41,674 bases of DNA from Alphaproteobacteria bacterium (GTDB taxonomy: Bacteria; Pseudomonadota; Alphaproteobacteria; UBA7887), in assembly GCA_036398035.1 (NCBI GenBank), contig DASWHU010000240.1, positions 1-41,674 on the forward strand, given 5' to 3'. Of the stretch, positions 6,074 through 36,300 are shown piece by piece. The notes under the pieces were generated by a model. It was not told the DNA's origin and made no database searches. It saw only the letters and a list, made by a program, of their open reading frames with translations. The stretch's first letter is position 1; every line of letters begins with the position of its first letter. The translations under genes were made by a program, and so were the position numbers.

Positions 6074-6655
6074 ATGTCGCAGATCGCGGTCACCGTATCG
6101 TCCCGATCTTCGCCCGGTTACCGGTTCGATCGCCTGTCGGTGATGGTGGTCGACGACAACCGCCACATGCTCAACCTGATCGCGGAAATCCTGCGCGGGC
6201 TGTCGATCCGCCGCCTGATCAGGCTCACCGACCCGGCGGACGCCTTCAAGGAGCTGCTGATCGCGCCGGTCGACATCATCGTCGTCAACCACGTCATGGA
6301 GCCGTTGACCGGCATCGAGTTCGCCAAGCTGGTGCGCTTCGGCGACGACAGCCCCGACCTGTTCGTGCCGATCATCATGGTCACCGGCTACAGCGACGCG
6401 GCGACGGTGCGGGCGGCGCGCGACGCCGGGGTGAACGAGTTCCTGGCCAAGCCGATCTCGGTCCGCGGCCTGTACACGCGCATCCTCGAGGTCATCGACC
6501 ACCCGCGCCCGTTCATCCGCTGCCCCGACTTCTTCGGCCCCGACCGCCGCCGCCAGGTGGTGCCGTTCGATGGCCAGGACCGACGCGTCAGCGCGCCGAG
6601 CGAATCGCCCGAAGGCGGCGCGGCGCAACTGATTCCGGTCGCCGCGCGCACGTGA
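6074..6655 (+). CDS. single-domain response-regulator receiver protein with Asn at the phospho-acceptor position
   Basis: 193 aa. By-eye alignment to CheY places VVDDN at the acidic pair, IIMVTGY at the conserved Thr and FLAKP at the conserved Lys. The D57-equivalent in DIIVVNHVMEPLTG is Asn72 (codon 6287..6289, AAC). Confidence 0.8.
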   Translation: MSQIAVTVSSRSSPGYRFDRLSVMVVDDNRHMLNLIAEILRGLSIRRLIRLTDPADAFKELLIAPVDIIVVNHVMEPLTGIEFAKLVRFGDDSPDLFVPIIMVTGYSDAATVRAARDAGVNEFLAKPISVRGLYTRILEVIDHPRPFIRCPDFFGPDRRRQVVPFDGQDRRVSAPSESPEGGAAQLIPVAART

Positions 6656-6677
6656 CCAGGTACCGGGACCCAAGCCG

Positions 6678-7208
6678 ATGACCAATCGCGACCGGCCAGG
6701 GGATGACGCCACCGCGGCGGCCCTCATTCGGATGCCGAACAAGATCAAGGACAAGGTCACCCTCGGCGGGCGGATCAAAGGAGACGGTTTCGACCCCAAG
6801 TTGCTGCAACGGGCCGAGCGCCGGGTCGAGGCGATGCGGGACGTGTTTCTGGACGCCGCGCGGGACGACATCGACCGGCTGGTCGCCGCATTGTCCAACG
6901 CCCAGACCGATGCCGCCCGGCGCGGTCGCCATCTCGACACGCTTGAGAAGATCGCGCACGAGATCAAGGGTTACGGCAGCCACATCGGCTACGACCTGTT
7001 GACCCGGTTCGCCGATTCGCTGTCGCTGTTCCTGCGCAAGGCGAAGACGACGGTTGCCGTGAAGCTCGAGGTGGCGGAGGTCCATGTCGACGCGATGCGC
7101 CTCGTTTACCATGACGGGCTGACCGGCGACGGCGGCGAGCAGGGCGCGGATTTGACCGCCGGCCTGCGCAGCGCGGTCGGCAGATACCTTCGCGCCGAGG
7201 ACTTCTGA
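6678..7208 (+). CDS. Hpt (histidine phosphotransfer)-like domain protein
   Basis: 176 aa. KIAHEIKGYGSHIGYDLL fits the Hpt consensus HxxKGxxxxxG, with the His codon at 6957..6959. The gene starts 22 bp after the receiver gene. Confidence 0.6.
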   Translation: MTNRDRPGDDATAAALIRMPNKIKDKVTLGGRIKGDGFDPKLLQRAERRVEAMRDVFLDAARDDIDRLVAALSNAQTDAARRGRHLDTLEKIAHEIKGYGSHIGYDLLTRFADSLSLFLRKAKTTVAVKLEVAEVHVDAMRLVYHDGLTGDGGEQGADLTAGLRSAVGRYLRAEDF

Positions 7209-7244
7209 ACCCCGCGGCCGGCGGCCGCTCGGCGAGCCGGAGCC

Positions 7245-7252
7245 GTCCTGCG
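7245..7252. repeat. left copy of the flanking direct repeat GTCCTGCG (putative target-site duplication)
   Basis: It is identical to the octamer at 7813..7820 and lies directly outside the left inverted repeat. Confidence 0.6.
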
Positions 7253-7273
7253 GGTGGTGTCTCAGTTTGAAAT
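7253..7273. repeat. left terminal inverted repeat GGTGGTGTCTCAGTTTGAAAT
   Basis: The reverse complement of 7792..7812 is GGTAGTGTCTCAGTTTGAAAT, which differs at one position. Confidence 0.8.
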
Positions 7274-7347
7274 CCGCGACCCCTGACGCGAGTGTCGCGT
7301 CCTGCCTTTGGCTTCTATAGGCTTAGCGGAAGCACGGGAGGCTGGCC

Positions 7348-7803
7348 TTGCGCGATACCACTCACGCACCTGAGCTGAAGACAGACCGCCTTATCGCGAG
7401 CGGCTTTGAGTTATCGGGACGGTGGGAGTTGGACACCGCTTCACGCGCACGATTCATCGGCGAAGCTCCGAAGCAACCGGGGGTCTACGCTTTTGCGGTG
7501 GACGGAAAGGTTCTTTATATCGGTTCCGCCCAGCGTGGCATCGCCAAACGGTTGCGTCGCTACGAAATCACCGAAATCCGGCTGACGGCGTTTCGCGTCA
7601 GAGCTTTGATAACCGAAGCGCTCGGGGACGGTTCCGAGGTTGCAGTGCTCACGATTGTCCCATGCTCAATGCGATGGAAGGGCCTTCCTGTGGACCTGAT
7701 CGCCGGACTTGAAGAGGGCCTCATTCGCGAGTTGCGACCAGAATGGAATATTCGCGGACTCGGCGCTCTGCGAAAGAAAACGGCTTCCGAAATTTCAAAC
7801 TGA
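7348..7803 (+). CDS. GIY-YIG nuclease family protein
   Basis: 151 aa. The TTG start lies 6 nt after a GGGAGG Shine-Dalgarno. Motifs seen are GVYAF (GIY), VLYIGSA (YIG), conserved Arg (RLRRY), conserved Glu (LEEGLIREL) and PEWN. The stop codon lies inside the right inverted repeat. Confidence 0.75.
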   Translation: MRDTTHAPELKTDRLIASGFELSGRWELDTASRARFIGEAPKQPGVYAFAVDGKVLYIGSAQRGIAKRLRRYEITEIRLTAFRVRALITEALGDGSEVAVLTIVPCSMRWKGLPVDLIAGLEEGLIRELRPEWNIRGLGALRKKTASEISN

Positions 7804-7812
7804 GACACTACC
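7792..7812. repeat. right terminal inverted repeat ATTTCAAACTGAGACACTACC
   Basis: It pairs with 7253..7273 (20/21) and contains the last codons and the TGA stop of the GIY-YIG ORF. Confidence 0.8.
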
Positions 7813-7820
7813 GTCCTGCG
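7813..7820. repeat. right copy of the flanking direct repeat GTCCTGCG
   Basis: It is identical to 7245..7252 and lies directly outside the right inverted repeat. Confidence 0.6.
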
Positions 7821-7883
7821 CGCCCGCTTGACCCGCCGGCGTGATGATGATTGGCTGATGTTCTTATTCTGTTCCAATGGCAT

Positions 7884-8174
7884 ATGGCCTCGCGGACGAC
7901 ATCGCGCGGTGCGGCGCCCGTCACCCTCGGCGAGCTTGCGGCCGAGGGCCGTCGCGTGTGGCTGTGGTGCGAGCGCTGCGCGCGCAGCCGCAGCATCGCC
8001 GCCACCGTGCTTGCCCGTCGCCTGCCCGCCGATTTGCCCGTGCCGCTGATCGGCCGCCGCGTCCGCTGCCGCATCTGCGGCGGGCGCGAAGTGCACAGCC
8101 GTCCGCACTGGCCGCCTGGCGAGACGGTGGCCTCGCATCGCTGGCACGACGGCGGCTCGGGAGCCGAGGAATGA
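7884..8174 (+). CDS. small zinc-ribbon (4-Cys) hypothetical protein
   Basis: I trimmed the track ORF to the ATG at 7884, giving 96 aa. The pattern LGELAAEGRRVWLWCERCARSRSI...RVRCRICGGREVHSRPHW, with two CxxC pairs, matches a small protein family I recall as common in Alphaproteobacteria. Confidence 0.6.
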   Translation: MASRTTSRGAAPVTLGELAAEGRRVWLWCERCARSRSIAATVLARRLPADLPVPLIGRRVRCRICGGREVHSRPHWPPGETVASHRWHDGGSGAEE

Positions 8175-8282
8175 CGCGCGTGGGCGCACGGGGCGGGCAG
8201 CGGAATCGCCCTAAATACCCCTGTGCAGAAGCAACAGCCCGGCACCCACGCGGGCGATGTCGGTCAAAAAAAAGCGCGCCGA

Positions 8283-9482
8283 ATGAACAAAGCGACCACT
8301 GCGACCCGAACCCCTGGCCTCGGGGTCGACGAGGCTGAACGGGCCGAGCTCCACCGCTACATCCGCCACATCGACCGCGCGCTCAACCGGCTGTGGAACC
8401 TGGGGCGCAACCTGGTGGTCGGCTGGCACCCGGCCGAGGCCGGCCTCAGGGTCCTGGTCATCCCGCATCACATGCTGCGCGAGCTCGCCGAGCAGGACGG
8501 CGACCTGCTGTGCGACGGCCATCGCGTGACCCATGCGCGCCTCGACGCGCTCGGCCGCCAGCTCGGCATCGAGCCGATCCAGGTGCGCCTTCCGAACCGC
8601 CCCGGGCGGCCCGGCATCGCCCACAAGGCGATCGAATCGGTGGTGCGCCGCTACAGCGTCACCAAGTCGAACCACCGCGCCGCGATCCTGCTCGACATCG
8701 TCGGCTTCTCGCTCTACTCGCCGCTCGAGCAGGTCACCCTGCTCAACAGCCTCGCGTTTTCGATCAACGTCGCCCAGAGCCGCGCGCTCGCCAACAAGCT
8801 GCGCATCGACGTGAGCCGCAGCACCACCGGCGACGGCTTCTATGTCTGGAATCGCGACGAGGGCCTCGAGGCCGACGTCAACCTGTTCTACCTGATGATG
8901 CTGGTGCTGGCCGACAACGCGCTCGCGCGGCACAAGGGCGCGCCCAGCGCAGTGCCGGTGCTGCGCTCGTGCTTCCATCTCGGCAGCCACTACGAGTACT
9001 ACCCGGCCGACGGGCTCAACCCGTCGGTCACCGGCTTCATCGTCGGTGATCTCACCATCGAGCTCGCGCGCATGGTCGGCAAGGCGTTGCCCGGGCAGGT
9101 GCTGATCGGCCAGTTCACGCGCCCGAAAGCCGGCGTGGGCGGACACGCGGGGGCCCTGTCGACGCTGGCTTTCGTCAGTCGCGCCCAAGACCGCCTCGAC
9201 CAGCTGCACGCACTCGAGCTTTCCGGCCAGCGCATCACGGCGATCAAGTGTTACCTTACCGGCAAGCGCATCGGCGGCGGTGTGTACAGCATCACCAAAT
9301 ACGCCCTCAGCGACAAGCACGGCCGGCAAAGGAACGTGTTCAACGCCAAGGTGAACATCTATCGAGGCGATGCCGACGTGCTCTATTTGGGCCTGGAGAA
9401 CAAGGACCTGGAACGTTTCGATGCCGAAGCTGCCGAGCCGCGCACGCGCGCCAGACCCGGTGTCCGGGCGAGCGTCGACTAG
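8283..9482 (+). CDS. divergent class III nucleotidyl cyclase (cyclase homology domain)-like protein with unassigned N- and C-terminal regions
   Basis: The ATG is at 8283; an alternative GTG lies at 8223. By-eye CHD landmarks are AAILLDIVGFS (first metal Asp, codon 8694..8696), TTGDGFYVW (second metal Asp, codon 8832..8834) and LRSCFHLGSH...VGDLTIELARMVGKALPGQVLIG, which corresponds to the RiGihtG...GdtVNlAaRle..a.pgqIlvs block. Confidence 0.55.
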   Translation: MNKATTATRTPGLGVDEAERAELHRYIRHIDRALNRLWNLGRNLVVGWHPAEAGLRVLVIPHHMLRELAEQDGDLLCDGHRVTHARLDALGRQLGIEPIQVRLPNRPGRPGIAHKAIESVVRRYSVTKSNHRAAILLDIVGFSLYSPLEQVTLLNSLAFSINVAQSRALANKLRIDVSRSTTGDGFYVWNRDEGLEADVNLFYLMMLVLADNALARHKGAPSAVPVLRSCFHLGSHYEYYPADGLNPSVTGFIVGDLTIELARMVGKALPGQVLIGQFTRPKAGVGGHAGALSTLAFVSRAQDRLDQLHALELSGQRITAIKCYLTGKRIGGGVYSITKYALSDKHGRQRNVFNAKVNIYRGDADVLYLGLENKDLERFDAEAAEPRTRARPGVRASVD

Positions 9483-11145: not shown

Positions 11146-12474
11146 ATGACCGACCTGGTCGCAAAATACGGGCTGGCGCGGGTGCCGCGCTACACCAGCT
11201 ATCCGACCGCGCCCCACTTCGATTCGCGGATCGGGCCGGCCGCGCACCACGACTGGCTCGGCGCGCTCGACGCCGGCACGCGCGTGTCGCTCTACCTGCA
11301 TGTGCCATTTTGCGCGCGCCTGTGCTGGTACTGCGGCTGCCACACCACCATCACCCGCGATCCCGAGCGGGTTCACCGCTACGCCGACCTGCTCGCGCGC
11401 GAGCTCGACCTGGTGCGCGCGGCCCTTCCCGCCCGGCTCGCGGCCGGCCACGTCCATTGGGGCGGCGGCACGCCGACCATGCTCGGCGCCGGCGGCTTCA
11501 CCCGGATCGCCGCGCTGGTACGCGACCGCTTCGCGCTCACTGCCGACGCGGAGATAGCGATCGAGATCGACCCGCGCAGCCTCGACGCCGAGACCGCGCG
11601 CGCGCTTGCCGGCGCCGGCGTCACGCGCGCGAGCCTCGGCGTGCAGGACTTCACCTCCCGCGTCCAGCAGGCCGTCAACCGGGTGCAGCCGTTCGAGCAG
11701 GTGGCGCGGGCGGCAGCGTGCCTGCGCGCGCACGGCATCCGTGCGCTCAACTTCGACCTCATGTACGGCCTGCCGCACCAGACCGCCGCCGACGTCGGCC
11801 GCAGCGTCGACCTCGCCGTGCGCCTGGCCCCGGACCGTGTCGCGGTGTTCGGTTATGCGCATGTGCCCTGGCTCAAGCGCCATCAGCGGCTGCTCGATGA
11901 GGCGGCGCTGCCCGGTGCCGCCGCACGCCGCGTCCAGGCCGAGACCGCGGCAGCGCGCCTCATTGCCCACGGCTATGTCGCGATCGGGCTGGACCATTTC
12001 GCCCGCCCCGGCGACGCGCTTGCCAGGGCGGCGGCCGAAGGCCGGCTCCGGCGCAACTTCCAGGGCTACACCACCGACGACGCTCCGGCGCTGATCGGGC
12101 TCGGGGCGTCGGCAATCTCGACCCTGCCCCAGGGCTATGCGCAGAACGCGGGCGACCTGCGGCAATATCGCGGGCGGATTGCCGCCGGCCGGTTGGCGAC
12201 GGCGCGCGGGGTCGCGCTCGACGACGACGACCGGATCAGGCGGCGGATCATCGCCCGGCTGATGTGCGGCTTCGAGGCCGACCTCGGACCCGCCGACGGC
12301 GCGCTGGAGGTCGATCGCGGAACGCTCGCCGAGATGGCGCGCGACGGTCTGGTGGTCGGCGACGGCTCGCGGCTGCGCGTAACCGAGGCCGGCCGGCCGT
12401 ATGTGCGCACGGTCGCCGCGTGCTTCGACCGTTATCTGTCGTCGCGCGCAGGGCGCCACGCACAGGCCGTCTAG
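11146..12474 (+). CDS. hemN: oxygen-independent coproporphyrinogen III oxidase (radical SAM)
   Basis: Recognised from VPRYTSYPTAPHF, the radical-SAM box LYLHVPFCARLCWYCGC, and the overall length. I placed the start at the ATG giving MTDLVAKYG. Confidence 0.9.
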   Translation: MTDLVAKYGLARVPRYTSYPTAPHFDSRIGPAAHHDWLGALDAGTRVSLYLHVPFCARLCWYCGCHTTITRDPERVHRYADLLARELDLVRAALPARLAAGHVHWGGGTPTMLGAGGFTRIAALVRDRFALTADAEIAIEIDPRSLDAETARALAGAGVTRASLGVQDFTSRVQQAVNRVQPFEQVARAAACLRAHGIRALNFDLMYGLPHQTAADVGRSVDLAVRLAPDRVAVFGYAHVPWLKRHQRLLDEAALPGAAARRVQAETAAARLIAHGYVAIGLDHFARPGDALARAAAEGRLRRNFQGYTTDDAPALIGLGASAISTLPQGYAQNAGDLRQYRGRIAAGRLATARGVALDDDDRIRRRIIARLMCGFEADLGPADGALEVDRGTLAEMARDGLVVGDGSRLRVTEAGRPYVRTVAACFDRYLSSRAGRHAQAV

Positions 12475-12560
12475 CAGGTCGCGGCCGAAAACCGAAATTG
12501 GCTGCCGAGAAACTGTCTATACGATCGAATTAAATTAAAATCTCAACCGGCACGAAGCGC

Positions 12561-13013
12561 CTACGGCGTCCCGGTGACGGTCGCGATCAGCGGTGCCGAC
12601 TTCATCTCCAGGTGCCCCTCCTGGTAAACGCTGTAGCGGAACACGCCGTTGATCACGTGCGTGCCCGGGTAGGTCGGCGTGACCGCGACCGAGAACACGA
12701 CCTTGCCGTCGTCCATCTTGCCGGCAACGACCTCGTCCTCGAACGCGACGCCGCCGTCGGTCGATAGCTTGATGATCCGGTGGCGATAGACGTCGGTCAG
12801 CCCAAAACCCTCGCGCGGGGTCAACGTCGCCCGCACCGCCGTCGTCTCGCCCACCTTGGCGGTCGCGTTCTCGACCGTGATCGCGACCGGATCCTCGAAC
12901 GCCTGCGCGGCGGCGGCCGTTGTGCCGGCAAGCCCGGCGGCGACCGCGGCGAGCGCGGCCAAGGCGACGCGCCGCCCGCGGCGCACGAACCCTCCGACCG
13001 TGCCACTGCCCAT
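12561..13013 (-). CDS. small periplasmic beta-rich hypothetical protein (last gene of the PQQ-DH/Rieske operon)
   Basis: I trimmed the ORF to the ATG at 13013, which is preceded by GGGAGAG. The signal peptide is ...LAALAAVAAGLAGTTAAAAQA. The mature part has an alternating beta-strand pattern. Confidence 0.6.
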   Translation of the reverse strand: MGSGTVGGFVRRGRRVALAALAAVAAGLAGTTAAAAQAFEDPVAITVENATAKVGETTAVRATLTPREGFGLTDVYRHRIIKLSTDGGVAFEDEVVAGKMDDGKVVFSVAVTPTYPGTHVINGVFRYSVYQEGHLEMKSAPLIATVTGTP

Positions 13014-13180
13014 ATCTCGCTCTCCCATCGTCGCCGAGGATCGCCCGCGCCGCTTATCAAGAAGATCGGGCCAGCCGCGCAACTGGCGGCTGGCCCGGAA
13101 ACGGACTTTGGTCCGCGACTTTGCCGCTCAGCGGGCCGGCCACCGAACCGGCAGCCGGCCCACACAGGGGTCTTCGTCCC

Positions 13181-14896
13181 TTACTCGCCGAGCGCGAACG
13201 CCCAGATGACGCCGCCTTGCGGCACCACGGTGTCGGTGCCGAGCAGGTTGTTCATCAGGCCCTGCTGGAACGCCGGGTCGACGCCCCAGCCGGACGCCAC
13301 GGCGACGTACTGGACGCCGTCAACCTCGTAGGAGGCCGGCGGCGCCATGATGCCCGAGTTGGTGCGGAAGCCCCACAGCGCCTCGCCGGTCCTGGCGTCG
13401 TACGCCCGGAAGTACCGGTCGTTGGTGCCGCCGTTGAACACCAGGCCACCGCCGGTGGTGAGCAACGAGCCCCAGTTCATCATGCCGGGGTACAGCTGGC
13501 TCCAGACCTGCTCGCCAGTGTTGAGGTTCCACGCCTGGATCTCGCCGAAGTGCCGGGCACTCTTCTCGACCACGAAGCCGATGTCCGGAATGTCGACACC
13601 GGTCCACCACTGGCCGGCCACGTATTCCTGGACCTTGCCTTCCAGGAAGCCGCAATGGTTCTCGTTGGCGGGGATGTAGAGCAGGCCGGTCTTCGGGTTG
13701 TAGGCCTCGAACGGCCAGTCCTTGCCGCCCCACAGGCTGGGGCAGAAGCCGGCGTACTTGCCGGTGCCGGGCTTGCGGTCATCGTTGTAGGTCGGCCGCC
13801 CGGTGCTCGGGTCGATGCTCTTGAACACGTCCTGCTTGACGTAGGCCTTGGCGTCGACGAAGCCGATGCCGTTGGCCTTGCGCTCGAGCCAGTACAGGTA
13901 GCCGTTGCGGGCCGGCTTGATCAGGCCCTTCACCATTTTCCCGCCGTGCTCGAAATTGACCACCGTCGGCGCGTTCATCTCGTCCCAGTCCCACGAGTCG
14001 TTCCAGTGGTACTGGAAGTGACCCTTGATCGAGCCGTCCTTCGGATCGATCGCGATGGTCGACGAGGTGTAGAGGTTGTCACCCTCGCGCTGATCGCCGA
14101 ACCACGGCGAGCCGTTGCCGGCGCCCCAAAAGGTGAGGCCGAGCTCGGGATCGTAGGTGCCGGTGTTCCATACCGCACCGCCGCCGCGCTTCCACGTATC
14201 GCCTGGCCAGGTGTCGTTGCCGGGCTCGCCCGGGCCGGGAATGGTGAAGGTCTTCCAGGCCGGCTTGCCGGTCTCGGCGTCGAGCGCCTGGACGAAGCCG
14301 CGGACGCCGAACTCGCCGCCCGAGACCCCGACCATGACCTTGCCGTCGACGATCAGCGGCGCCATGGTCTGGTAGTAGCCAGTGTGGTAGTCCTCGACCA
14401 CCGTCTCCCAGACCACCTTGCCTGTCTTGGCGTCGAGCGCGAGCGTGGTGGGCTCGAGGCCGGTGAGGTAGACGTTGTTGCCGTAAAGCGCGACGCCACG
14501 GCTGGTGTTGTGCAATGCGCCGAAGTCGTCCGGCAGCTCGCGCCGATAGCGCCAGATCAGATCGCCGGTCGCCGCCTTGAGGGCGATGACCTGGGCATAG
14601 GGCGTGGCAACGAACATGACGCCGTCATTGACGATCGGCGGCGCCTCGTGGCCCGAGTCGACCCCGGTCGAGAACGACCATACCGGCTTCAGGCTGCCGG
14701 CATTTGCGGTGTTGATCTGATCCAGCGGACTGTACATCCAGCCCCAGTAATTGCCGCGCGTCATCAGCCAGTTCCCGGCTTCGGGATTGGTCAGTCTCTG
14801 GCTGGTGACGGTGCTGTAGTCGGACAGCATGCCTGCGGCCGCGACCGCAGGCATCAGGCCGACACCGAGCAGCGCAGCGTATTTAGCTACTTTCAT
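13181..14896 (-). CDS. PQQ-dependent dehydrogenase, methanol/ethanol family (no vicinal Cys-Cys; D-W-D motif)
   Basis: I trimmed the ORF to MKVAKYA, which is preceded by AGGGAGGA. It has a signal peptide. Propeller landmarks are GVSGGEFGVRGF, GGGAVWNTGTYDPELGL.FWGAGNGSPW and WDWDEMN. LHNTSRG sits where the family normally has CCDxxNRG. Confidence 0.85.
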   Translation of the reverse strand: MKVAKYAALLGVGLMPAVAAAGMLSDYSTVTSQRLTNPEAGNWLMTRGNYWGWMYSPLDQINTANAGSLKPVWSFSTGVDSGHEAPPIVNDGVMFVATPYAQVIALKAATGDLIWRYRRELPDDFGALHNTSRGVALYGNNVYLTGLEPTTLALDAKTGKVVWETVVEDYHTGYYQTMAPLIVDGKVMVGVSGGEFGVRGFVQALDAETGKPAWKTFTIPGPGEPGNDTWPGDTWKRGGGAVWNTGTYDPELGLTFWGAGNGSPWFGDQREGDNLYTSSTIAIDPKDGSIKGHFQYHWNDSWDWDEMNAPTVVNFEHGGKMVKGLIKPARNGYLYWLERKANGIGFVDAKAYVKQDVFKSIDPSTGRPTYNDDRKPGTGKYAGFCPSLWGGKDWPFEAYNPKTGLLYIPANENHCGFLEGKVQEYVAGQWWTGVDIPDIGFVVEKSARHFGEIQAWNLNTGEQVWSQLYPGMMNWGSLLTTGGGLVFNGGTNDRYFRAYDARTGEALWGFRTNSGIMAPPASYEVDGVQYVAVASGWGVDPAFQQGLMNNLLGTDTVVPQGGVIWAFALGE

Positions 14897-14962
14897 TGCG
14901 GATCCTCCCTCTGTCGTACGAAGCGAGCGCGGCACGAAGCGTGGACGAAGCCCAACTCCACC

Positions 14963-15541
14963 TCATGCCGGCTTCTTGAAGCCGACGGCACCTTCGAACT
15001 CGCCGGCGGCGACGATGACGCCATCCTCCACCTTTACCGGCAGGATGGCCAGTCGTCGCGGCGCTGGCCCGGCGACGACCTCGGCCATGTCGCCCGGATT
15101 GTACTCACTGCCATGGCAGGAGCAATAGAGAGTGTCGTTCTCGGGTTGCCACATCGACACCGGGCAACCCTGATGCGTGCATACCGCCGAGTAGACGACG
15201 ACACCCTCGGCCGCAAACCGGCGGGTCCGGTCGGTGATCGCCGCGTCGGCCAGCCGGATCAGGGCGACCTGGTTGAGCCGCGAGCCCTTGCGCACCGTCC
15301 CGGTGGCGGGATCGATCGGGTAGGCAATTTCCTGGGGGCCGCCGAGCGGCAGGTCGTCGACCTTGATGACCTCGCCCTTCTTGTCGCCCTTCAGGAACAC
15401 GAACCGGTCGCCGGGCTGGGGACGCATTTTCTCAGGGTTGTCGGCGGCGCGCACCGCGGCGAGTTTCAGGAACGGTAGCGCGGCACCCAAGCCAAGACCC
15501 GACCTGAGCAACGCCCGTCGTGCTTTTCCAAACGCTTGCAA
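14963..15541 (-). CDS. Tat-exported Rieske [2Fe-2S] protein
   Basis: 192 aa. The TTG start is preceded by GGAGA. The twin-arginine signal is KARRALLRSGLGLGAAL. The Rieske boxes are CTHQGC and CSCHGS, the disulfide-containing bc1/AioB type. Confidence 0.85.
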   Translation of the reverse strand: MQAFGKARRALLRSGLGLGAALPFLKLAAVRAADNPEKMRPQPGDRFVFLKGDKKGEVIKVDDLPLGGPQEIAYPIDPATGTVRKGSRLNQVALIRLADAAITDRTRRFAAEGVVVYSAVCTHQGCPVSMWQPENDTLYCSCHGSEYNPGDMAEVVAGPAPRRLAILPVKVEDGVIVAAGEFEGAVGFKKPA

Positions 15542-15626
15542 GGGGTTATCTCCAGTCCAGCCGTCGGTCCTCTCGCCCCCCGATAGATAACATCTCGGTG
15601 CCGCCGTTGCCAGGGGCGGGCGGCGT

Positions 15627-17429
15627 TCACGGCGCCAGCGCGAACGCGATCACCGCATCGCCCTGCGGGAACCCGAACAGGTGATGGCCGCCGGCTGCGA
15701 CCGCGACGTACTGGATGCCGTCGACCTGATAGGTAACCGGCGGCGCGTTGACCCCGGCGCCGCACTGGAACCGCCACAGCCGCGCGCCGGTGGCCGAGTC
15801 ATAGGCGTTGAGATAGCCGTTGCCCTCGCCCATGAACACCAGGTCGCCGGCGGTCGCCAGCACGCCGCCGAGCAGCACATCGTCGCTCTTGACCTGCCAG
15901 CGGATGCGGCCGGCGTCGGCGAGGTCGATGGCGCTGAGCGTGCCCCAGCGCGGCTCGTTCGCGACCTCGAGCACCGAATAGCGCCGCGCCGGCTTGTCCG
16001 CAGTCGCCGGCCGCTCGCGCACGCTGTAGGTGGTCGGCATGTGCAACGCCGCCAGATAGGCGAGCCCGGTGCGCGGATCGAACGAGGCCGGCGACCACGA
16101 CGCGCCGCCGCCCGCGCCCGGCGCGATGGTCACGCCTTCGCCGGTCGGGCGCCGGAACATGTTGCTTTGCGGGACGAACGGTTCCGACTTGAACAACAGC
16201 TCGCCGGTCGCGCGGTCGAGCACGTACATCCACCCGGTCTTGGACGCCGAGGCCACCGCCTTGACCGTGCCGCCGTCGCGCGCGAGGTCGACCAGCACCG
16301 GCGGCGTGCCGACGTCGTAGCCCCACAGGTCGTGCGGCACCTGCTGATAGAACCAGCGCAGCTCGCCGCTGCGCGCGTCGAGCGCCACCAGCGCCACCGT
16401 GTACAGGTTGTCGCCCGGGCGCGAGACGTCGTCCATCTGCGGCGCCGGATTGCCGGTGCCGAGATAGAGCAGCCCGAGCTCGGGATCGAGCGACGGCGTC
16501 GACCAGGTCGAGCCGCCGCCGACCTGCCACGCATCCGCGTACTCCGCCTGGCGCGCCCGCTCGGCGGCGATGTCACGTTCGAGCGCCACCCCGTCGGGCG
16601 TGTGCGTGCGCCACTCCCCTTCCCAGCCGTCGGCCTTGGTGGTGTACCAGCGCCACGCCTCGGCGCCGGTCTTCGCGTCGAAGGCGGCGAGATAGCCGCG
16701 CCGGCCGAACTGTCCCTCGAAGCCGATCACCGCGCCGAGCTGGTTGCCCTCGGCGTCATCGACATGCAGGCCGTAGCCCGCGCCGGTGACTCCCGCGATC
16801 ACCAGGCCGTCGAACACCAGCGGCGCCATGTTGGCGCCGAGCCCGCTGGCGCCGGTCACGCGCTGGCCGCGCAGCGGGTCGTCGGCGGCAAGCTCGGACA
16901 AGGTCTCGGTCGGCCTGGTGTCGGGGGCGGCGATGGTAACGTCCCATTTGACCGCGCCGGTGGCCTGGTCGAGCGCCACCAGCCGGCCGTCGGCGGTGGC
17001 CATGTAGACCGCGCCGTAGCCGAGCGCCGCGCCGCGGTTGGCCGGCCCGCAGCACAGCTTGTCGGTGACCATCTGGTGGCGGTAGCGCCAGACTTGCTCG
17101 CCGCTGGCGGCGTCGAGCGCGACCACGTCGTTGCGCGGCGTGGTCAGGTACATGATGCCGTCGGCGACCACGGGCGTGGCCTGGAACGTGGCGCTGATCC
17201 CGGTCTGGTAGATCCAGCGCGGCACCAGCCTCGCCACCGACGTGCGGTCGATCTGGTCAAGGCTCGAGAACCGATGGTGGGCGTAGCCGTGGCCATAGGA
17301 CAGCCAGTCGCCGCTGGCCGGCGACTCGGCCCGCAGCCGGGCATCGTCGACCGGGCCCGCCGCCGCCGCCGCGGCCAGCGACACGCCAAGCAGCGCCCCG
17401 GCAAGACTCGTCTTATGATGAGATTTCAT
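15627..17429 (-). CDS. PQQ-dependent dehydrogenase-family beta-propeller protein (Cys-Cys present; Gly at the catalytic-Asp position)
   Basis: 600 aa with a signal peptide (MKSHHKTSLAGALLGVSLAAAAAA). Landmarks are KLCCGPANRG and GGGSTWSTPSLDPELGLLYLGTGNPAP. PHDLWGYDVG sits where paralogs have W-D-x-D. Confidence 0.8.
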   Translation of the reverse strand: MKSHHKTSLAGALLGVSLAAAAAAGPVDDARLRAESPASGDWLSYGHGYAHHRFSSLDQIDRTSVARLVPRWIYQTGISATFQATPVVADGIMYLTTPRNDVVALDAASGEQVWRYRHQMVTDKLCCGPANRGAALGYGAVYMATADGRLVALDQATGAVKWDVTIAAPDTRPTETLSELAADDPLRGQRVTGASGLGANMAPLVFDGLVIAGVTGAGYGLHVDDAEGNQLGAVIGFEGQFGRRGYLAAFDAKTGAEAWRWYTTKADGWEGEWRTHTPDGVALERDIAAERARQAEYADAWQVGGGSTWSTPSLDPELGLLYLGTGNPAPQMDDVSRPGDNLYTVALVALDARSGELRWFYQQVPHDLWGYDVGTPPVLVDLARDGGTVKAVASASKTGWMYVLDRATGELLFKSEPFVPQSNMFRRPTGEGVTIAPGAGGGASWSPASFDPRTGLAYLAALHMPTTYSVRERPATADKPARRYSVLEVANEPRWGTLSAIDLADAGRIRWQVKSDDVLLGGVLATAGDLVFMGEGNGYLNAYDSATGARLWRFQCGAGVNAPPVTYQVDGIQYVAVAAGGHHLFGFPQGDAVIAFALAP

Positions 17430-17601
17430 TGTCCTTTCCCGCCTCCCTCGGCAACGGCGTCCCCGAACACCGATCTTGAAAGGGCGAGGCAGGCAAGTCT
17501 ACTGCGGCCGCCCGACCACCGCGCGCCGGCTCTTGCGCCGGTGCGTGGCGGTCGCCAAGTCTAGCAGTTCGCAGGCACCGTGAACGGATGAGGTCGAAGC
17601 G

Positions 17602-18489
17602 ATGACATCGGCAACCGGGACGACCCGCCCGGCGGACGCGACCGCGCGCCTGCGCGGCGTTCGCCGCACCGTCACCGGCATGCCCGCCTCCGACGGCGCC
17701 GGAGTGCGGCTGAGCCGGATCATCGGCCAGCCGGGGCTCGACATGGTCGATCCGTTCCTGCTCCTCGACGAGTTCAAGTCCGACCGGCCCGAGGACTACA
17801 TCGCCGGCTTCCCGGAGCATCCGCATCGCGGCTTCGAGACCGTCACCTACATGATCGCCGGGCGCGTCCGCCACGCCGACAACAAGGGCCATGCCGGCGT
17901 CATCGAGGCCGGCGGCGTGCAGTGGATGACCGCCGGGCGCGGCATCGTCCATTCGGAGATGCCCGAGCAGGAGGACGGCCTGCTGTGGGGCTTCCAGCTG
18001 TGGGTCAACCTGCCCGCCGCCGACAAGATGAAGCCGCCCGCCTACCAGGAGTTCCCCGCCGAGCGCATTCCCGCGGAGAGCCGCGACGGCGGCGTGGTCG
18101 TGCGCGTGATCGCCGGTACCACCGCGCCCGGCACCACCGGGCCCGTGACCGGCATCCCGACCGCGCCGGCCTATCTCGACGTGGCGCTCGCCGCCGGCAG
18201 CCGTTTCGAGGAGCCGCTGCCCGCGGCATCGAGCGCGTTCGTCTATCCGTTCCAGGGCAAGGTCCGCGTCGCCGGCAACGGCGCGGCCACCGAGCTTGCC
18301 GCGGGCACGCTCGGCCTGCTCGGGCCCGGCGACGTGGTGCGCATCGAGGCCGGCGACGACGACGCCCGCCTGCTGCTCGTCGCCGGCCGCCCGCTCGGCG
18401 AGCCGGTCGCCCGTTACGGCCCGTTCGTGATGTCGACCAAGGCCGAGCTGACGCGGGCCTACCAGGACTTCCAGGCCGGCCGCTTCTGA
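17602..18489 (+). CDS. pirin family protein
   Basis: 295 aa. Cupin metal-site motifs are HPHRGFETVTYM and QWMTAGRGIVHSEMP. Confidence 0.85.
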   Translation: MTSATGTTRPADATARLRGVRRTVTGMPASDGAGVRLSRIIGQPGLDMVDPFLLLDEFKSDRPEDYIAGFPEHPHRGFETVTYMIAGRVRHADNKGHAGVIEAGGVQWMTAGRGIVHSEMPEQEDGLLWGFQLWVNLPAADKMKPPAYQEFPAERIPAESRDGGVVVRVIAGTTAPGTTGPVTGIPTAPAYLDVALAAGSRFEEPLPAASSAFVYPFQGKVRVAGNGAATELAAGTLGLLGPGDVVRIEAGDDDARLLLVAGRPLGEPVARYGPFVMSTKAELTRAYQDFQAGRF

Positions 18490-35177: not shown

Positions 35178-35690
35178 TCAGTGCCCGCCGCCGCCGCCGC
35201 CGGCAACGTCGAGCTTGAGCTGTCGGCACATCTTGGATTGGCCGAAGAACAGCTCGCAGTCCGCCGTCTCGAGATCGTCCGACCGGCCCTTGAAATGCTC
35301 GACGATGAACTCCGCGACGTGCTTGACTTGACGGTGGTTCAGCAACTGGCGCGCGGGTCCGGGCGCCATCTCGCCGAGTTCCTCGAGCGTCATGCCGTCA
35401 TAGCAGTCGTGATCCTTGTAGGCGCCCCGCAAGTGATACATCATCCCCGTTCCGGGCCGACCGCAGGAGATCACTTCGATCATCTGGTCGAGCTCGAGAA
35501 TGGTCTGGCGGAAATTGATCGGCGTGCCGCCATAGCCCGGGCCGCCCATGCCGTGCCATTTGTGGCAGGTGATGCAGCCGGCCTGCTTGTAGATCGCGGC
35601 GCCCGGGAGCCTGCGTTGCATCTGCGCCGATGCCGGTGCAATCCACGCCATCGCCAGCAGACCGGCGAGCGCCACCGCCGCACCGCGCAT
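35178..35690 (-). CDS. periplasmic monohaem c-type cytochrome
   Basis: I trimmed the ORF to MRGAAVALAGLLAMAWIAPASA. It has a single CITCH haem-binding motif and ends in ...DVAGGGGGGH. Confidence 0.75.
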   Translation of the reverse strand: MRGAAVALAGLLAMAWIAPASAQMQRRLPGAAIYKQAGCITCHKWHGMGGPGYGGTPINFRQTILELDQMIEVISCGRPGTGMMYHLRGAYKDHDCYDGMTLEELGEMAPGPARQLLNHRQVKHVAEFIVEHFKGRSDDLETADCELFFGQSKMCRQLKLDVAGGGGGGH

Positions 35691-35862
35691 TGACTTGCCG
35701 CAAGTCCTCACTCGTTCCTCCCTGGCGCGGTCGCACCGCCCCTCCGGTCGCGCTCCGCCCCCCCGACAGCGGACGCATAGGCTCGCATGTACTGCAACCG
35801 CCCGTTCCAGACAACCCCCGCCGCCGGGCCGACCTGAGCGCGTCGCGGGGCACACCGCGCAG

Positions 35863-36300
35863 TCAATTCTGCTTGAAGTTCCAGCAGCGCGAATTTTGCC
35901 GCCCGCCCTCGGCCAGCCTCTCAGGCTGTCCCGACTCGAAGGACCTGACGAGGGCCAGGGCATCGAAATGACAGTGGCGGGGAATGTATTCCTTGAGCAG
36001 AAGGTCGTACTTCTCTTTGGCGTCCTTGACGCCGCCCTTGGCGGCGAGCGTCAGCCACGCGTAAGCCGAGATCACGTCGCGCGGTTCGCCGACGCCGTTG
36101 GCGAGCATGATGCCCAGCTCATACTGCGCCTGCGCATCGCCGGCCAGCGCCGCGGCCAGCCATTCCTGATGGGCGGTGTTGAAGTCGCCGGCGTCGTAGG
36201 CGTGCTTGCCGGAAATGAAGTCGGCGCGCACCGGCGCTCCGAGCCACAGTACCAGCAGCGCCAGCGCGACGCTCGCGGCGCGCCGCCATGTCCGCGTCAT
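35863..36300 (-). CDS. secreted Sel1-repeat protein (paralog of 34639..35157)
   Basis: I trimmed the ORF to MTRTWRRAASVALALLVLWLGAPVRA. The mature N-terminus, ADFISGKHAYDAGDFNTAHQEWL..GDAQAQYELGIML, parallels ADFDAGNRAYAVRDYETAFKEWL..GDATAQNNIGFMY of the other gene. Confidence 0.7.
   Translation of the reverse strand: MTRTWRRAASVALALLVLWLGAPVRADFISGKHAYDAGDFNTAHQEWLAAALAGDAQAQYELGIMLANGVGEPRDVISAYAWLTLAAKGGVKDAKEKYDLLLKEYIPRHCHFDALALVRSFESGQPERLAEGGRQNSRCWNFKQN

What the first reader, a model, noticed from the sequence alone, without database searches (positions are those of the whole stretch)
12561..17429. Operon of two dissimilar PQQ dehydrogenases flanking a Tat-exported Rieske protein, with no cytochrome c
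**Gene order**
Four co-directional minus-strand genes are separated by gaps of 85, 66 and 167 bp:
- PQQ-DH (15627..17429).
- Rieske protein (14963..15541), with an RRALL twin-arginine signal and CTHQGC...CSCHGS boxes.
- PQQ-DH (13181..14896).
- A small signal-peptide beta-rich protein (12561..13013).

**Why it is unusual**
- Characterised methanol/ethanol-family quinoproteins pass electrons to soluble c-type cytochromes or to a fused haem domain. No cytochrome gene is present in this operon.
- The Rieske boxes are of the disulfide-bearing bc1/arsenite-oxidase small-subunit type. That type normally forms a stable periplasmic complex with a catalytic subunit.
- This points to an undescribed periplasmic quinoprotein-Rieske redox complex, possibly a heteromer of the two propellers.
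Basis: partly seen in the sequence, partly recalled or inferred. Interest (0 to 1): 0.75.

Follow-up and report, generated by a model that had tools for sequence, protein, structure and literature searches.

The report
Rieske protein paired with PQQ dehydrogenase
A periplasmic PQQ alcohol-dehydrogenase-like enzyme that has lost the usual cysteine pair is encoded next to its own small exported Rieske iron-sulfur protein in bacteria of several phyla, which suggests that the Rieske protein replaces cytochrome c as electron acceptor; the second PQQ gene next to it here is only a recent neighbour.

Summary
The four minus-strand genes exist exactly as described. The proposed DH–Rieske–DH unit is not conserved.

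**Conserved module**
- The order is Tat-signal Rieske (14963–15541), then DH2 (13181–14896), then a 150-aa Ig-like protein (12561–13013).
- Searching from the Rieske protein, 53 of 58 genome loci have a DH2 orthologue directly downstream.
- Searching from DH2, 53 of 64 metagenome loci have the Rieske gene in the cluster. Six of these have the permuted order DH2–small protein–Rieske.
- The taxa include Alpha-, Beta- and Gammaproteobacteria, Rokubacteria, Gemmatimonadota and Vicinamibacterales.

**DH2 and Rieske features**
- DH2 keeps the metal and PQQ residues and the lanthanide-type Asp (WDWD).
- DH2 universally lacks the vicinal Cys-Cys. No cytochrome c is a conserved neighbour.
- The Rieske protein is 45% identical to the Thermus bc-complex Rieske domain. 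It has the disulfide cysteines and the Ser/Tyr box II pattern linked to high potential.

**DH1 (15627–17429) is a bystander**
- Its orthologues stand alone between pirin and HemN in relatives.
- It has no orthologue in any of about 140 module loci.
- Its family has Gly in place of the catalytic Asp.

**Best reading**
The Rieske protein is the dedicated electron acceptor of a Cys-Cys-less, probably lanthanide-type PQQ alcohol dehydrogenase. This is inferred, not shown. I found no description of it in the literature or in curated family libraries.

The parts
14963..15541 (-). Rieske [2Fe-2S] protein, 192 aa, TTG start. It has a twin-arginine signal (RRALL) with a VRA|A peptidase-type motif. Box I is CTHQGC and box II is CSCHGSEY. 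It is the proposed electron acceptor of DH2.
   Evidence: - PF00355 scores 36.6 bits.
- The best solved relative is the Thermus thermophilus bc-complex Rieske soluble domain 1NYK/3FOU (E = 3e-38), at 45.4% identity over 152 aa.
- C121, H123, C126, C140, C142 and H143 are invariant in the family, and R8/R9 are nearly invariant.
- All curated bc1, b6f and AioB models score below their cutoffs.
13181..14896 (-). DH2: an 8-bladed PQQ propeller of the methanol/ethanol family, 571 aa, with a Sec-type signal. The metal and PQQ site is intact and has the lanthanide-type Asp (W302-D303-W304-D305). The vicinal Cys-Cys is replaced by A-L-H129.
   Evidence: - TIGR03075 scores 549.8 bits, above the 480.05 cutoff.
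- The best solved relative is PedH-type 6ZCV (E = 1e-105).
- E195, N274, D303, D305, R133, W243, R330 and H129 are invariant in alignment A3.
- None of 50 + 80 family members has CC, and nearly all have WDWD.
- Orthologues are 52-77% identical and lie directly after the Rieske gene.
12561..13013 (-). Small exported protein (SML), 150 aa, with an Ig-like beta-sandwich fold. It is the third member of the module in the clade whose DH2 is at least 65% identical. Its function is unknown, and I predict it is an accessory or docking subunit.
   Evidence: - There are no Pfam, NCBIfam or PDB sequence hits.
- It has 51 homologues, all unnamed or called hypothetical.
- In the AF2 model residues 41-150 are all-beta with pLDDT of 94 or higher.
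- Foldseek finds only generic Ig-like folds, with TM-scores of about 0.5 or less.
- It is present after DH2 in 34/52 genome loci and 22/63 metagenome loci, exactly those with DH2 identity of 65% or more.
13067..13097 (-). Strong GC hairpin (12-bp stem, 11 G-C pairs) with a T-containing tail in the DH2-SML gap. It may be an attenuator or an mRNA-stabilising element. This is tentative.
   Evidence: It was found by the consensus scan. The region had 2 such sites against 2.7 expected in shuffles, so this is not statistically significant. Conservation was not checked.
15627..17429 (-). DH1: an adjacent PQQ-like propeller, 600 aa. It is NOT part of the conserved module. It keeps the Cys-Cys but has Gly in place of the catalytic Asp (LWGYD), and it has a 24-aa insertion before the metal-Glu position.
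   Evidence: - TIGR03075 scores 432.1 bits, below the 480.05 cutoff.
- WGYD/WGLD is present in 41/41 family members sampled, and the Glu position is Q, R or S.
- Orthologues are solitary.
- Pirin-DH1-HemN synteny without the cassette is seen in L085, L087 and L169.

Best explanation
**What the unit is**
The functional unit is a three-gene periplasmic module: Rieske, then DH2, then the small protein. It is not the four-gene row.
- DH2 is a Sec-exported PQQ propeller of the methanol/ethanol dehydrogenase family, probably lanthanide-type. It oxidises an alcohol to an aldehyde and leaves PQQ reduced.
- DH2 does not hand electrons to a dedicated c-type cytochrome as MxaF, XoxF, ExaA, PedH and Mdh2 do. 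Its partner is the co-encoded Tat-exported Rieske protein of the disulfide-bearing bc1 type.
- The Rieske protein is probably released into the periplasm by signal peptidase. Its exposed [2Fe-2S] tip takes the electrons one at a time from PQQH2, much as a Rieske cluster oxidises quinol at the Qo site of bc complexes.
- DH2 has lost the vicinal disulfide that lies over PQQ in cytochrome-linked enzymes. It has an invariant His there instead, which I take as an adaptation to the new partner.
- The reduced Rieske protein then passes electrons to a high-potential acceptor encoded elsewhere, such as a soluble cytochrome c or a terminal oxidase.
- The Ig-like small protein is an accessory or docking subunit confined to one clade.
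- In this genome the module was inserted recently between an unrelated solitary propeller gene (DH1) and hemN.

**Shown**
- Gene content, conservation of linkage, active-site and cluster motifs, and absence of a conserved cytochrome gene.

**Inferred**
- Electron flow from DH2 to Rieske, cleavage of the signal peptide, high redox potential, lanthanide use, an alcohol substrate, and the identity of the final acceptor.
For: 1. **Linkage from the Rieske side.** 53/58 species-level genome loci have a DH2 orthologue (52-77% identical) directly downstream, and one more has it directly upstream.
2. **Linkage from the DH2 side.** 47/64 metagenome loci have the Rieske gene directly upstream. Six more have the order DH2-SML-Rieske, and one has a Rieske gene on both sides. 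Linkage therefore survives rearrangement.
3. **Breadth.** The module occurs in Alpha-, Beta- and Gammaproteobacteria, Rokubacteria, Gemmatimonadota and Vicinamibacterales. The Rieske family comprises 87 clusters at 50% identity with E <= 1e-30.
4. **Co-inheritance.** Rieske and DH2 pairwise distances correlate at r = 0.84 (0/2000 permutations) and at r = 0.79 within one clade.
5. **Same compartment.** The Rieske protein has a twin-arginine signal, and 52/59 members have an [AVS]-x-A motif before the mature domain. DH2 has a Sec-type signal.
6. **No conserved cytochrome c.** No recurrent neighbour cluster carries CxxCH, and none is in the window's row of genes.
7. **Loss of the Cys-Cys.** DH2 has lost it in all 130 members examined, while keeping Glu, Asn, Asp and the lanthanide Asp.
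8. **Internal control.** A third propeller on the same contig (37750-39567) has the Cys-Cys, and a mono-haem cytochrome c lies 1.8 kb downstream of it.
9. **Rieske box II.** It reads C-x-C-H-x-[S/T]-x-[Y/F] in nearly all DH2-linked members. By established knowledge of bc1 Rieske proteins, this Ser and Tyr raise the potential. Thermus, which oxidises menaquinol, has Gly there.
10. **Alcohol oxidation fits the context.** 39/135 loci carry an aldehyde-oxidising enzyme nearby: a Mo-hydroxylase pair or an NAD aldehyde dehydrogenase.
11. **Tip and loop change together.** The Rieske tip residue and the DH2 loop that replaces Cys-Cys co-vary (57/57 and 39/46).
Against: - There is no experimental or structural evidence of contact or electron transfer. 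No multimer model could be made with these tools.
- 10/64 DH2-type loci have no Rieske gene within 5 kb, and no cytochrome either. The pairing is therefore not obligatory in cis.
- A few family Rieske genes sit beside a 4-haem SoxA/TsdA-like cytochrome or stand alone (L004/5/7, L011, L022, L026). The Rieske protein may be a more general shuttle.
- The tip-loop covariation follows two clades, so it amounts to one or two evolutionary events.
- The mirror-tree correlation shows co-inheritance, not contact.
- The onward acceptor is unidentified. L033 alone has a mono-haem cytochrome c directly upstream of DH2.
- Lanthanide use, redox potential and signal cleavage are read from motifs only.
Confidence: 0.62

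Rival explanations
1. DH1, Rieske and DH2 form one operon-encoded complex, possibly a heteromer of the two propellers that shares the Rieske protein.
For: - The four genes are co-directional with short gaps, and no terminator-like site was found between DH1 and Rieske.
- A close relative (DH1 85% identical) keeps the same DH1, 87 bp, Rieske junction.
- Read-through transcription in this lineage cannot be excluded.
Against: - DH1 has no orthologue in 63 genome loci or 79 metagenome loci that carry the module.
- DH1 orthologues at 80%, 74%, 68%, 73% and 62% identity are solitary. Three of them lie between pirin and HemN with no room for the cassette.
- DH1 keeps the Cys-Cys typical of cytochrome-linked enzymes, but its family lacks the catalytic Asp and the metal-binding Glu.
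- Where two propellers do share a Rieske gene (L010, L068), both are DH2-type duplicates.
Confidence: 0.06
2. The Rieske protein is a general soluble periplasmic electron shuttle. It is co-regulated with DH2 but is not its specific or direct acceptor. DH2 reduces some other carrier, and the Rieske protein serves several enzymes, for example the neighbouring Tat-exported Mo-hydroxylase or multi-haem cytochromes.
For: - Family members occur next to a 4-haem SoxA/TsdA-like cytochrome (L004/5/7) or alone (L011, L022, L026).
- A Tat-signal Mo-hydroxylase large subunit (32 loci) and its 2Fe-2S subunit (28 loci) lie near the module. The large subunit is on the same strand in 18 of them.
- 10/64 DH2-type loci lack a nearby Rieske gene.
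Against: - Adjacency to DH2 is far more frequent than to anything else: 53/58, against 32/135 for the Mo enzyme.
- Linkage persists through gene-order permutation.
- Distances co-vary at r = 0.84.
- Loss of the Cys-Cys in DH2 is universal in the clade.
- No alternative carrier is conserved next to DH2.
Confidence: 0.2
3. The Rieske protein keeps its Tat signal as a membrane anchor, as bc1 Rieske subunits do. It tethers DH2 to the membrane as a stable two- or three-subunit enzyme that feeds a membrane partner. This is a variant of the main model, not an alternative to electron transfer.
For: - Its closest relatives are anchored bc-complex subunits.
- The RR-to-mature-domain spacing is about 30 residues and includes a hydrophobic stretch.
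Against: - The hydrophobic stretch is short (about 15-17 residues), contains Gly and Pro, and is followed by an [AVS]-x-A motif in 52/59 members. That is typical of cleaved signals.
- No cytochrome b or other membrane partner is a conserved neighbour.
Confidence: 0.15
4. The adjacency has no functional meaning, or DH2 is not a working quinoprotein.
For: - Nothing has been measured.
- PQQ synthesis genes are not on this contig.
Against: - All PQQ and metal-site residues are invariant under strong conservation.
- DH2 scores above the curated family cutoff.
- Linkage is conserved across phyla.
Confidence: 0.03

Closest known systems
PQQ alcohol/methanol dehydrogenases with a dedicated cytochrome c partner: MxaFI-MxaG (cytochrome cL), XoxF-XoxG, ExaA-ExaB (c550), PedE/PedH, Mdh2-Mdh2G
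   Same: - Both are periplasmic 8-bladed PQQ propellers of TIGR03075 with the same Glu/Asn/Asp metal site and, like XoxF, ExaF and PedH, the extra lanthanide Asp.
- The best solved relative is PedH-type 6ZCV (E = 1e-105).
- Both have a small dedicated redox protein encoded next to the enzyme.
- Aldehyde-oxidising enzymes are often nearby.
   Different: - The partner gene encodes a Rieske [2Fe-2S] protein, not a haem c protein.
- The vicinal Cys-Cys is absent in every member.
- There is no MxaJ/XoxJ-like binding protein. One clade has an Ig-like 150-aa protein instead.
- Mdh2 of Methyloversatilis has cytochrome Mdh2G (PMC5023235).
Thermus thermophilus bc-complex Rieske protein (PDB 1NYK, 3FOU)
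   Same: - It is the closest sequence relative: E = 3e-38 and 45.4% identity over the whole soluble domain.
- It has the same box I and box II, including the disulfide cysteines.
   Different: - The protein here is stand-alone, with no cytochrome b or c1 genes nearby.
- Its N-terminal signal is probably cleaved rather than a membrane anchor.
- Box II has Ser (CSCHGSEY) where Thermus has Gly (CPCHGGVY).
- Its partner is a quinoprotein rather than a membrane quinol site.
Arsenite oxidase AioAB and relatives, in which the Rieske small subunit AioB serves a periplasmic dehydrogenase
   Same: - A Tat-signal, disulfide-bearing Rieske protein acts as the electron exit of a periplasmic substrate dehydrogenase and hands electrons to soluble high-potential carriers.
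- AioB chains are detectable relatives (E of about 3e-9).
   Different: - The catalytic partner there is a Mo-bisPGD / 3Fe-4S enzyme co-exported through Tat. Here it is a Sec-exported PQQ propeller.
- TIGR02694 scores 41 bits against a cutoff of 95.65, so this protein is not an AioB.
Quinohaemoprotein alcohol dehydrogenases (type II, e.g. 1KV9, 1YIQ, 1KB0) and membrane glucose dehydrogenase
   Same: - They show that the PQQ propeller can be wired to different acceptors: a fused haem domain or ubiquinone.
- They are close in sequence (E = 3e-90).
   Different: - DH2 has no fused haem domain and no membrane anchor.
- Its acceptor would be a separate iron-sulfur protein.

Membership tests
PQQ-dependent dehydrogenase, methanol/ethanol family (NCBIfam TIGR03075) | Score above the curated whole-protein cutoff (480.05 bits) | tested here: met
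   DH2 scores 549.8 bits. DH1 scores 432.1 bits and does NOT meet the cutoff. The third propeller on the contig scores 547.1 bits.
PQQ-dependent dehydrogenase, methanol/ethanol family | Metal-binding Glu and Asn, the catalytic Asp, and the PQQ-contact Arg and Trp residues | tested here: met
   In DH2, E195, N274, D303, R133, W243 and R330 are invariant in alignment A3 and align to the PedH motifs. In DH1 the Asp is Gly in 41/41 members and the Glu position is Q, R or S, so DH1 does not meet this feature.
PQQ-dependent dehydrogenase, methanol/ethanol family (cytochrome-linked enzymes) | Vicinal Cys-Cys disulfide over PQQ | tested here: not met
   DH2 has A-L-H in its place. No member among 50 genome-derived and 80 metagenome-derived sequences has CC. 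DH1 and the third propeller do have it.
PQQ-dependent dehydrogenase, methanol/ethanol family (cytochrome-linked enzymes) | Cognate c-type cytochrome encoded with the enzyme | tested here: not met
   No recurrent neighbour cluster carries CxxCH. None lies within 20 kb in the window.
Lanthanide-dependent PQQ alcohol dehydrogenases (XoxF / ExaF / PedH type) | Additional Asp two residues after the catalytic Asp (DxD) | tested here: met
   WDWD is present in 49/50 sequences and in 78/80. D305 is invariant in A3.
Lanthanide-dependent PQQ alcohol dehydrogenases | Lanthanide binding and lanthanide-dependent activity | not testable with these tools
   This needs metal analysis and enzyme assays.
High-potential, disulfide-bearing Rieske proteins (bc1 / b6f / arsenite oxidase type) | Box I C-x-H-x-x-C and box II C-x-C-H, with the two extra cysteines that form the disulfide | tested here: met
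   The window has CTHQGC and CSCHGS. C121, H123, C126, C140, C142 and H143 are invariant, and 65/66 locus-derived members have box I.
High-potential, disulfide-bearing Rieske proteins | Twin-arginine export signal | tested here: met
   R8 and R9 are at least 90% conserved. Whether the signal is cleaved cannot be tested here.
Cytochrome bc1 / b6f Rieske subunit (QcrA, PetA, PetC equivalogs) | Curated model cutoff, and partnership with a cytochrome b gene | tested here: not met
   NF050121 scores 100.5 bits (cutoff 275), TIGR01416 43.5 (cutoff 97.4) and NF045928 50.2 (cutoff 250). No cytochrome b was found among the window genes scanned or among recurrent neighbours.
Arsenite oxidase small subunit AioB (TIGR02694) | Curated cutoff, and an adjacent AioA molybdopterin subunit | tested here: not met
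   The score is 41.2 bits against a cutoff of 95.65. The adjacent catalytic gene is a PQQ propeller.

The most novel reading that the evidence does not exclude
A soluble, high-potential periplasmic Rieske protein is the physiological oxidant of a widespread clade of lanthanide-type PQQ alcohol dehydrogenases.
- Its cluster-ligand histidine docks into the PQQ funnel, which is opened by loss of the Cys-Cys ring and lined by the invariant His129.
- It oxidises PQQH2 by proton-coupled one-electron steps. In effect this is a soluble, two-protein copy of the Qo-site reaction of bc complexes.
- In many genomes the same Rieske protein also accepts electrons from the neighbouring Tat-exported Mo-hydroxylase. 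That would wire a complete periplasmic alcohol-to-aldehyde-to-acid route into the respiratory chain without a dedicated cytochrome c.
Probability: 0.3. Interest if true: 0.82.

Novelty: new variant of a known kind. Interest (0 to 1): 0.66.

Why it matters
- **A new kind of acceptor.** As far as I know and could find, every characterised 8-bladed PQQ alcohol or methanol dehydrogenase passes electrons to haem c (a separate cytochrome or a fused domain) or, in membrane enzymes, to ubiquinone. An iron-sulfur acceptor would be a new way to wire quinoproteins into respiration.
- **A route to studying the Cys-Cys disulfide.** The role of this disulfide in electron transfer has not been settled experimentally, as far as I recall. 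Here a whole clade has replaced both the disulfide and the partner at once.
- **Relevance to soil bacteria.** The module occurs in soil-associated phyla that are hard to culture (Rokubacteria, Gemmatimonadota, Acidobacteriota) and carries the lanthanide signature. It therefore bears on how lanthanide-dependent carbon oxidation is coupled to energy conservation in soils.
- **Better annotation.** All three proteins currently carry uninformative names, and no curated family covers the Rieske protein or the small protein.
- **It can be tested.** Cultured carriers exist for experiments: Azohydromonas, Variovorax, Methylibium, Pseudaquabacterium and Roseicella.

Tried and rejected
- **Base composition as evidence of horizontal insertion.** DH2's lower GC comes from codon positions 1 and 2. 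Its GC3 is 0.91, like its neighbours, and only the Rieske gene is lower at 0.81. This was inconclusive, so I relied on synteny instead.
- **Promoter and terminator scan of 12300-17800.** It found no promoter-like sites and 2 terminator-like sites against 2.7 expected. Transcript structure cannot be decided from this.
- **Small protein.** Sequence searches against Pfam, NCBIfam and PDB gave nothing. The fold search found only generic Ig-like sandwiches, so the fold assigns no function.
- **Literature.** Seven full-text searches and four papers read for 'Rieske' alongside PQQ or lanthanide enzymes found no description of the pairing. The Mdh2 lead in Methylibium and Methyloversatilis was rejected because Mdh2 has a cytochrome c partner, and the Rieske protein in that paper is the bc1 subunit. 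Subscription-only literature was not searchable.
- **Linker-fused Rieske-DH2 chain for AlphaFold.** I did not attempt it.
- **Tip-loop covariation as proof of contact.** I considered and rejected this because it follows the two clades.
- **XoxF3 identity for DH2.** I considered and rejected this. The XoxF3 systems described in PMC10875860 co-localise with XoxG and cytochromes, and DH2 lacks the Cys-Cys.

Full report
**1. Observation**

The window is a complete 41,674-bp contig of a metagenome-assembled alphaproteobacterium. The four minus-strand ORFs are at exactly the stated coordinates and match the deposited proteins HEX9647582, HEX9647581, HEX9647580 and HEX9647579. The gaps are 85, 66 and 167 bp.

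DH1 (15627-17429) and DH2 (13181-14896) are both PF01011 propellers. DH1 is only about 31% identical to DH2-type propellers. The Rieske ORF (14963-15541) has the RRALL, CTHQGC and CSCHGS features. No gene of the row, and none within 20 kb, has a haem-binding CxxCH motif.

**2. What each protein is**

- **DH2** scores 549.8 bits on TIGR03075, the methanol/ethanol family (cutoff 480.05). Its best solved relative is the PedH-type ethanol dehydrogenase 6ZCV (E = 1e-105).
- **DH1** scores 432.1 bits, below that cutoff, and aligns to solved enzymes in two pieces around insertions.
- **The Rieske protein** passes PF00355 but falls far below every curated bc1, b6f or AioB model. Its clear nearest relative is the soluble domain of the Thermus thermophilus bc-complex Rieske protein (1NYK/3FOU, E = 3e-38, 45.4% identity over 152 residues).
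- **The small protein** (12561-13013) hits nothing in Pfam, NCBIfam or PDB sequences.

**3. Synteny starting from the Rieske protein**

The Rieske protein belongs to a family of stand-alone proteins of about 190 aa. A word-index search found 1530 hits, and the exhaustive search found 87 clusters at 50% identity with E <= 1e-30. The cluster ligands, the disulfide cysteines and the twin arginines are invariant or nearly so.

A scan of one genome per species returned 63 family loci. They come from Alpha-, Beta- and Gammaproteobacteria, Rokubacteria, Gemmatimonadota and Vicinamibacterales. They include cultured Azohydromonas, Methylibium, Variovorax, Pseudaquabacterium and Roseicella.

- In 53 of the 58 loci with enough downstream sequence, the next gene on the same strand is a DH2 orthologue, 52-77% identical. 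One further locus has it directly upstream.
- The small protein follows DH2 in 34 of 52 loci. These are exactly the loci whose DH2 is at least 65% identical to the window's.
- DH1 never finds an orthologue. Its 29-36% hits only overlap DH2-type genes.

**4. Synteny starting from DH2**

A DH2 family profile scanned against metagenome contigs gave 80 loci.

- Of the 64 with at least 700 bp upstream, 47 have the Rieske gene directly upstream.
- Six have the permuted order DH2, small protein, Rieske.
- One has a Rieske gene on both sides.
- Ten have none within 5 kb.

None of the 80 has a DH1 orthologue. The linkage therefore holds in both directions and survives rearrangement. Rieske and DH2 pairwise distances across 48 loci correlate at r = 0.84 (0/2000 permutations) and at r = 0.79 within the small-protein clade. 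This shows co-inheritance as a unit. It does not show contact.

**5. DH1 is a bystander**

DH1 belongs to its own well-conserved family, with members 60-85% identical.

- In relatives with DH1 at 74% and 68% identity, the gene lies between a divergent pirin gene (68% identical) and a convergent hemN (61% and 56%). DH1's stop is 7-23 bp from hemN's stop, and there is no Rieske gene, DH2 or small protein.
- A relative at 80% identity has the same DH1/hemN abutment.
- Two others, at 73% and 62%, are solitary in different contexts.
- Only a relative at 85% shares the junction DH1, 87 bp, Rieske.

In the window the same pirin and hemN genes flank a 3.15-kb segment that holds the three-gene module. 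The module was therefore inserted at this site within a narrow lineage. Composition neither supports nor contradicts a recent transfer.

**6. Active sites**

The DH2 family keeps the metal-binding Glu (GGEFGVRG), the Asn (GDNLY), the catalytic Asp and the lanthanide-type Asp two residues later (WDWD). It also keeps the Arg and Trp residues that contact PQQ. It has no vicinal Cys-Cys in any of 130 sequences. The motif x-A/Q-L-H-N/P, with an invariant His129, occupies that position.

The DH1 family is the reverse. The Cys-Cys is conserved, the catalytic Asp is Gly in 41/41 members (WGYD/WGLD), and the Glu position is variable behind a 24-residue insertion.

A third propeller on the contig (37750-39567) has the full canonical site, including the Cys-Cys and DYD. 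A mono-haem cytochrome c gene lies 1.8 kb downstream on the same strand. On one contig, then, the Cys-Cys enzyme sits near a cytochrome c and the Cys-Cys-less enzyme sits next to a Rieske protein.

**7. Rieske details**

Box II reads C-x-C-H-x-[S/T]-x-[Y/F] in nearly all DH2-linked members. In bc1 Rieske proteins this Ser and Tyr hydrogen-bond the cluster and raise its potential. That is established knowledge and was not tested here. Thermus, which oxidises menaquinol, has Gly at the Ser position.

The stretch between RR and the mature domain is about 30 residues. In 52/59 members it ends in an [AVS]-x-A motif. I read this as a cleaved Tat signal that yields a soluble periplasmic protein. This is an inference.

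**8. The small protein**

It has 51 homologues, all unnamed. Residues 41-150 fold as an all-beta Ig-like sandwich with pLDDT of 94 or higher. Only generic structural neighbours were found, with TM-scores of about 0.5 or less. It has no cysteine and only one invariant histidine, so it is unlikely to be a redox carrier. I treat it as an accessory or docking subunit.

**9. Context**

Beyond the three module genes, the recurrent neighbours are these:
- a Tat-signal molybdopterin subunit with a 2Fe-2S subunit, of the aldehyde oxidase / IorAB type;
- an NAD aldehyde dehydrogenase directly after DH2 in the clade without the small protein;
- a divergent sigma-54 activator in the same clade.

At least one aldehyde-oxidising enzyme is present in 39 of 135 loci. 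This is a lower bound because many contigs are short. It fits an alcohol-to-aldehyde role for DH2.

Cytochrome c genes are sporadic. One locus (L033) has a mono-haem cytochrome c directly upstream of DH2-Rieske. A few Rieske genes are paired with a 4-haem SoxA/TsdA-like cytochrome instead of DH2.

**10. Mechanism proposed**

- **Shown:** the module, its conservation, the motif pattern and the lack of a conserved cytochrome.
- **Inferred:** DH2 oxidises an alcohol with PQQ and probably a lanthanide. The Rieske cluster, exported folded by Tat, accepts the two electrons singly from PQQH2. Its potential should lie above that of PQQ/PQQH2, and Rieske clusters are natural quinol oxidants. The loss of the disulfide ring and the invariant His at that position adapt the PQQ funnel to the new partner. 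The reduced Rieske protein delivers electrons to a cytochrome c or an oxidase encoded elsewhere.

The Rieske tip residue and the DH2 loop change together (57/57 and 39/46). This follows the two clades and is only consistent with the model.

**11. Rivals**

- The two-propeller heteromer is contradicted by synteny and by DH1's active site (confidence 0.06).
- A general shuttle that is not DH2's direct acceptor remains possible, because of the cytochrome-paired and orphan Rieske genes and the ten DH2 loci without a Rieske gene (0.2).
- A membrane-anchored version is a variant of the main model (0.15).
- Meaningless adjacency or a dead DH2 is very unlikely (0.03).

**12. Comparison with what is known**

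- The system works like the MxaF/XoxF/ExaA/PedH-cytochrome c pairs, with an iron-sulfur protein in the cytochrome's place.
- It also works like the arsenite oxidase Rieske subunit in being the exit of a periplasmic dehydrogenase.
- DH2 is a member of TIGR03075. It fails two features typical of the cytochrome-linked enzymes: the Cys-Cys and a cognate cytochrome.
- The Rieske protein is a bc1-type Rieske by its motifs, but it is not a QcrA, PetA, PetC or AioB by curated cutoffs or by partners.

Seven full-text searches and four papers on novel lanthanide-type PQQ enzymes gave no mention of a Rieske partner. NCBIfam (June 2026) and Pfam have no model for this Rieske family or for the small protein. 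Subscription literature could not be searched.

**13. Verdict**

What is there is a widespread and apparently undescribed three-gene module. Its most likely role is a Rieske-linked, Cys-Cys-less, lanthanide-type PQQ alcohol dehydrogenase. I rate it a new variant of a known kind, with interest 0.66. My confidence is about 0.95 that the module is a real conserved unit, and about 0.6 that the Rieske protein is DH2's direct electron acceptor.

Noticed in passing
window 15627-17429 (-) and its family (P0121-P0240): The DH1 family (about 600 aa, 60-85% identical, many soil and marine metagenomes) keeps the vicinal Cys-Cys and the GDN Asn. It has Gly in place of the catalytic Asp (WGYD/WGLD in 41/41 members), a variable residue at the metal-Glu position, and a 24-aa insertion before it. 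It is always solitary. It may be a PQQ propeller with a non-canonical or non-catalytic site.
   Followed up: partly
window 37750-39567 (-) and 35178-35963 (-): A third PQQ propeller lies on the same contig (TIGR03075 547 bits, PedH-like E = 3e-101). It has the full canonical site (ACC, GAEYGIRG, GDNLY, YDYD). A mono-haem cytochrome c (CITCH; PF00034 at 23 bits, cutoff 21.3) lies about 1.8 kb downstream on the same strand, flanked by two Sel1-like repeat proteins.
   Followed up: partly
window 13067-13097 (-): A 12-bp, nearly all-GC hairpin followed by ATCTTCTTGA lies in the 167-bp gap between DH2 and the small protein. It might lower or stabilise expression of the downstream gene. It is not statistically distinguishable from chance in the scan.
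   Followed up: no
L004 / L005 / L007, about 7001-9194 (locus coordinates of L004): A member of the same Rieske family (60% identical) is followed by a 509-514 aa four-haem cytochrome with SoxA/TsdA-like domains instead of a PQQ propeller. Another mono-haem cytochrome lies upstream. The Rieske family therefore has at least one other kind of partner.
   Followed up: partly
e.g. L037, L044, L053 (upstream of Rieske); L013, L014, L063 (downstream of the small protein): A Tat-signal molybdopterin subunit (about 760-910 aa, MoCoBD_1/2) and a 2Fe-2S subunit of about 150 aa (Fer2_2) lie beside the module in 32 and 28 of 135 loci. They are often on the same strand and have no cytochrome subunit. They might share the Rieske protein as acceptor.
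   Followed up: partly
L010, L068 (tandem DH2 copies); L043, L046 (two divergent modules); L106 (Rieske on both sides): Some genomes duplicate DH2 behind one Rieske gene or carry two complete modules back to back, one with the small protein and one without. Where two propellers share a Rieske gene, both are of the DH2 type.
   Followed up: no
L009, L010, L021, L030, L031, downstream of the small protein: Two further conserved proteins of unknown function (about 212 aa and 125 aa, both with signal-like N-termini and no Pfam hit) follow the small protein in a group of alphaproteobacterial MAGs.
   Followed up: no
L054, L056-L058, L060, L065, L066: In the clade without the small protein (Azohydromonas, Methylibium, Variovorax, Dokdonella), DH2 is followed by an NAD aldehyde dehydrogenase (PF00171). 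In several of these loci the pair is preceded by a divergent sigma-54 activator of the AcoR type. This suggests an inducible alcohol catabolic operon in cultured strains.
   Followed up: partly
window 8223-9482 (+): A 419-aa ORF with good coding signal (GC3 0.89) has no Pfam hit. It lies downstream of a response-regulator gene and an Hpt-domain gene (6074-7208) and upstream of a TPR protein.
   Followed up: no
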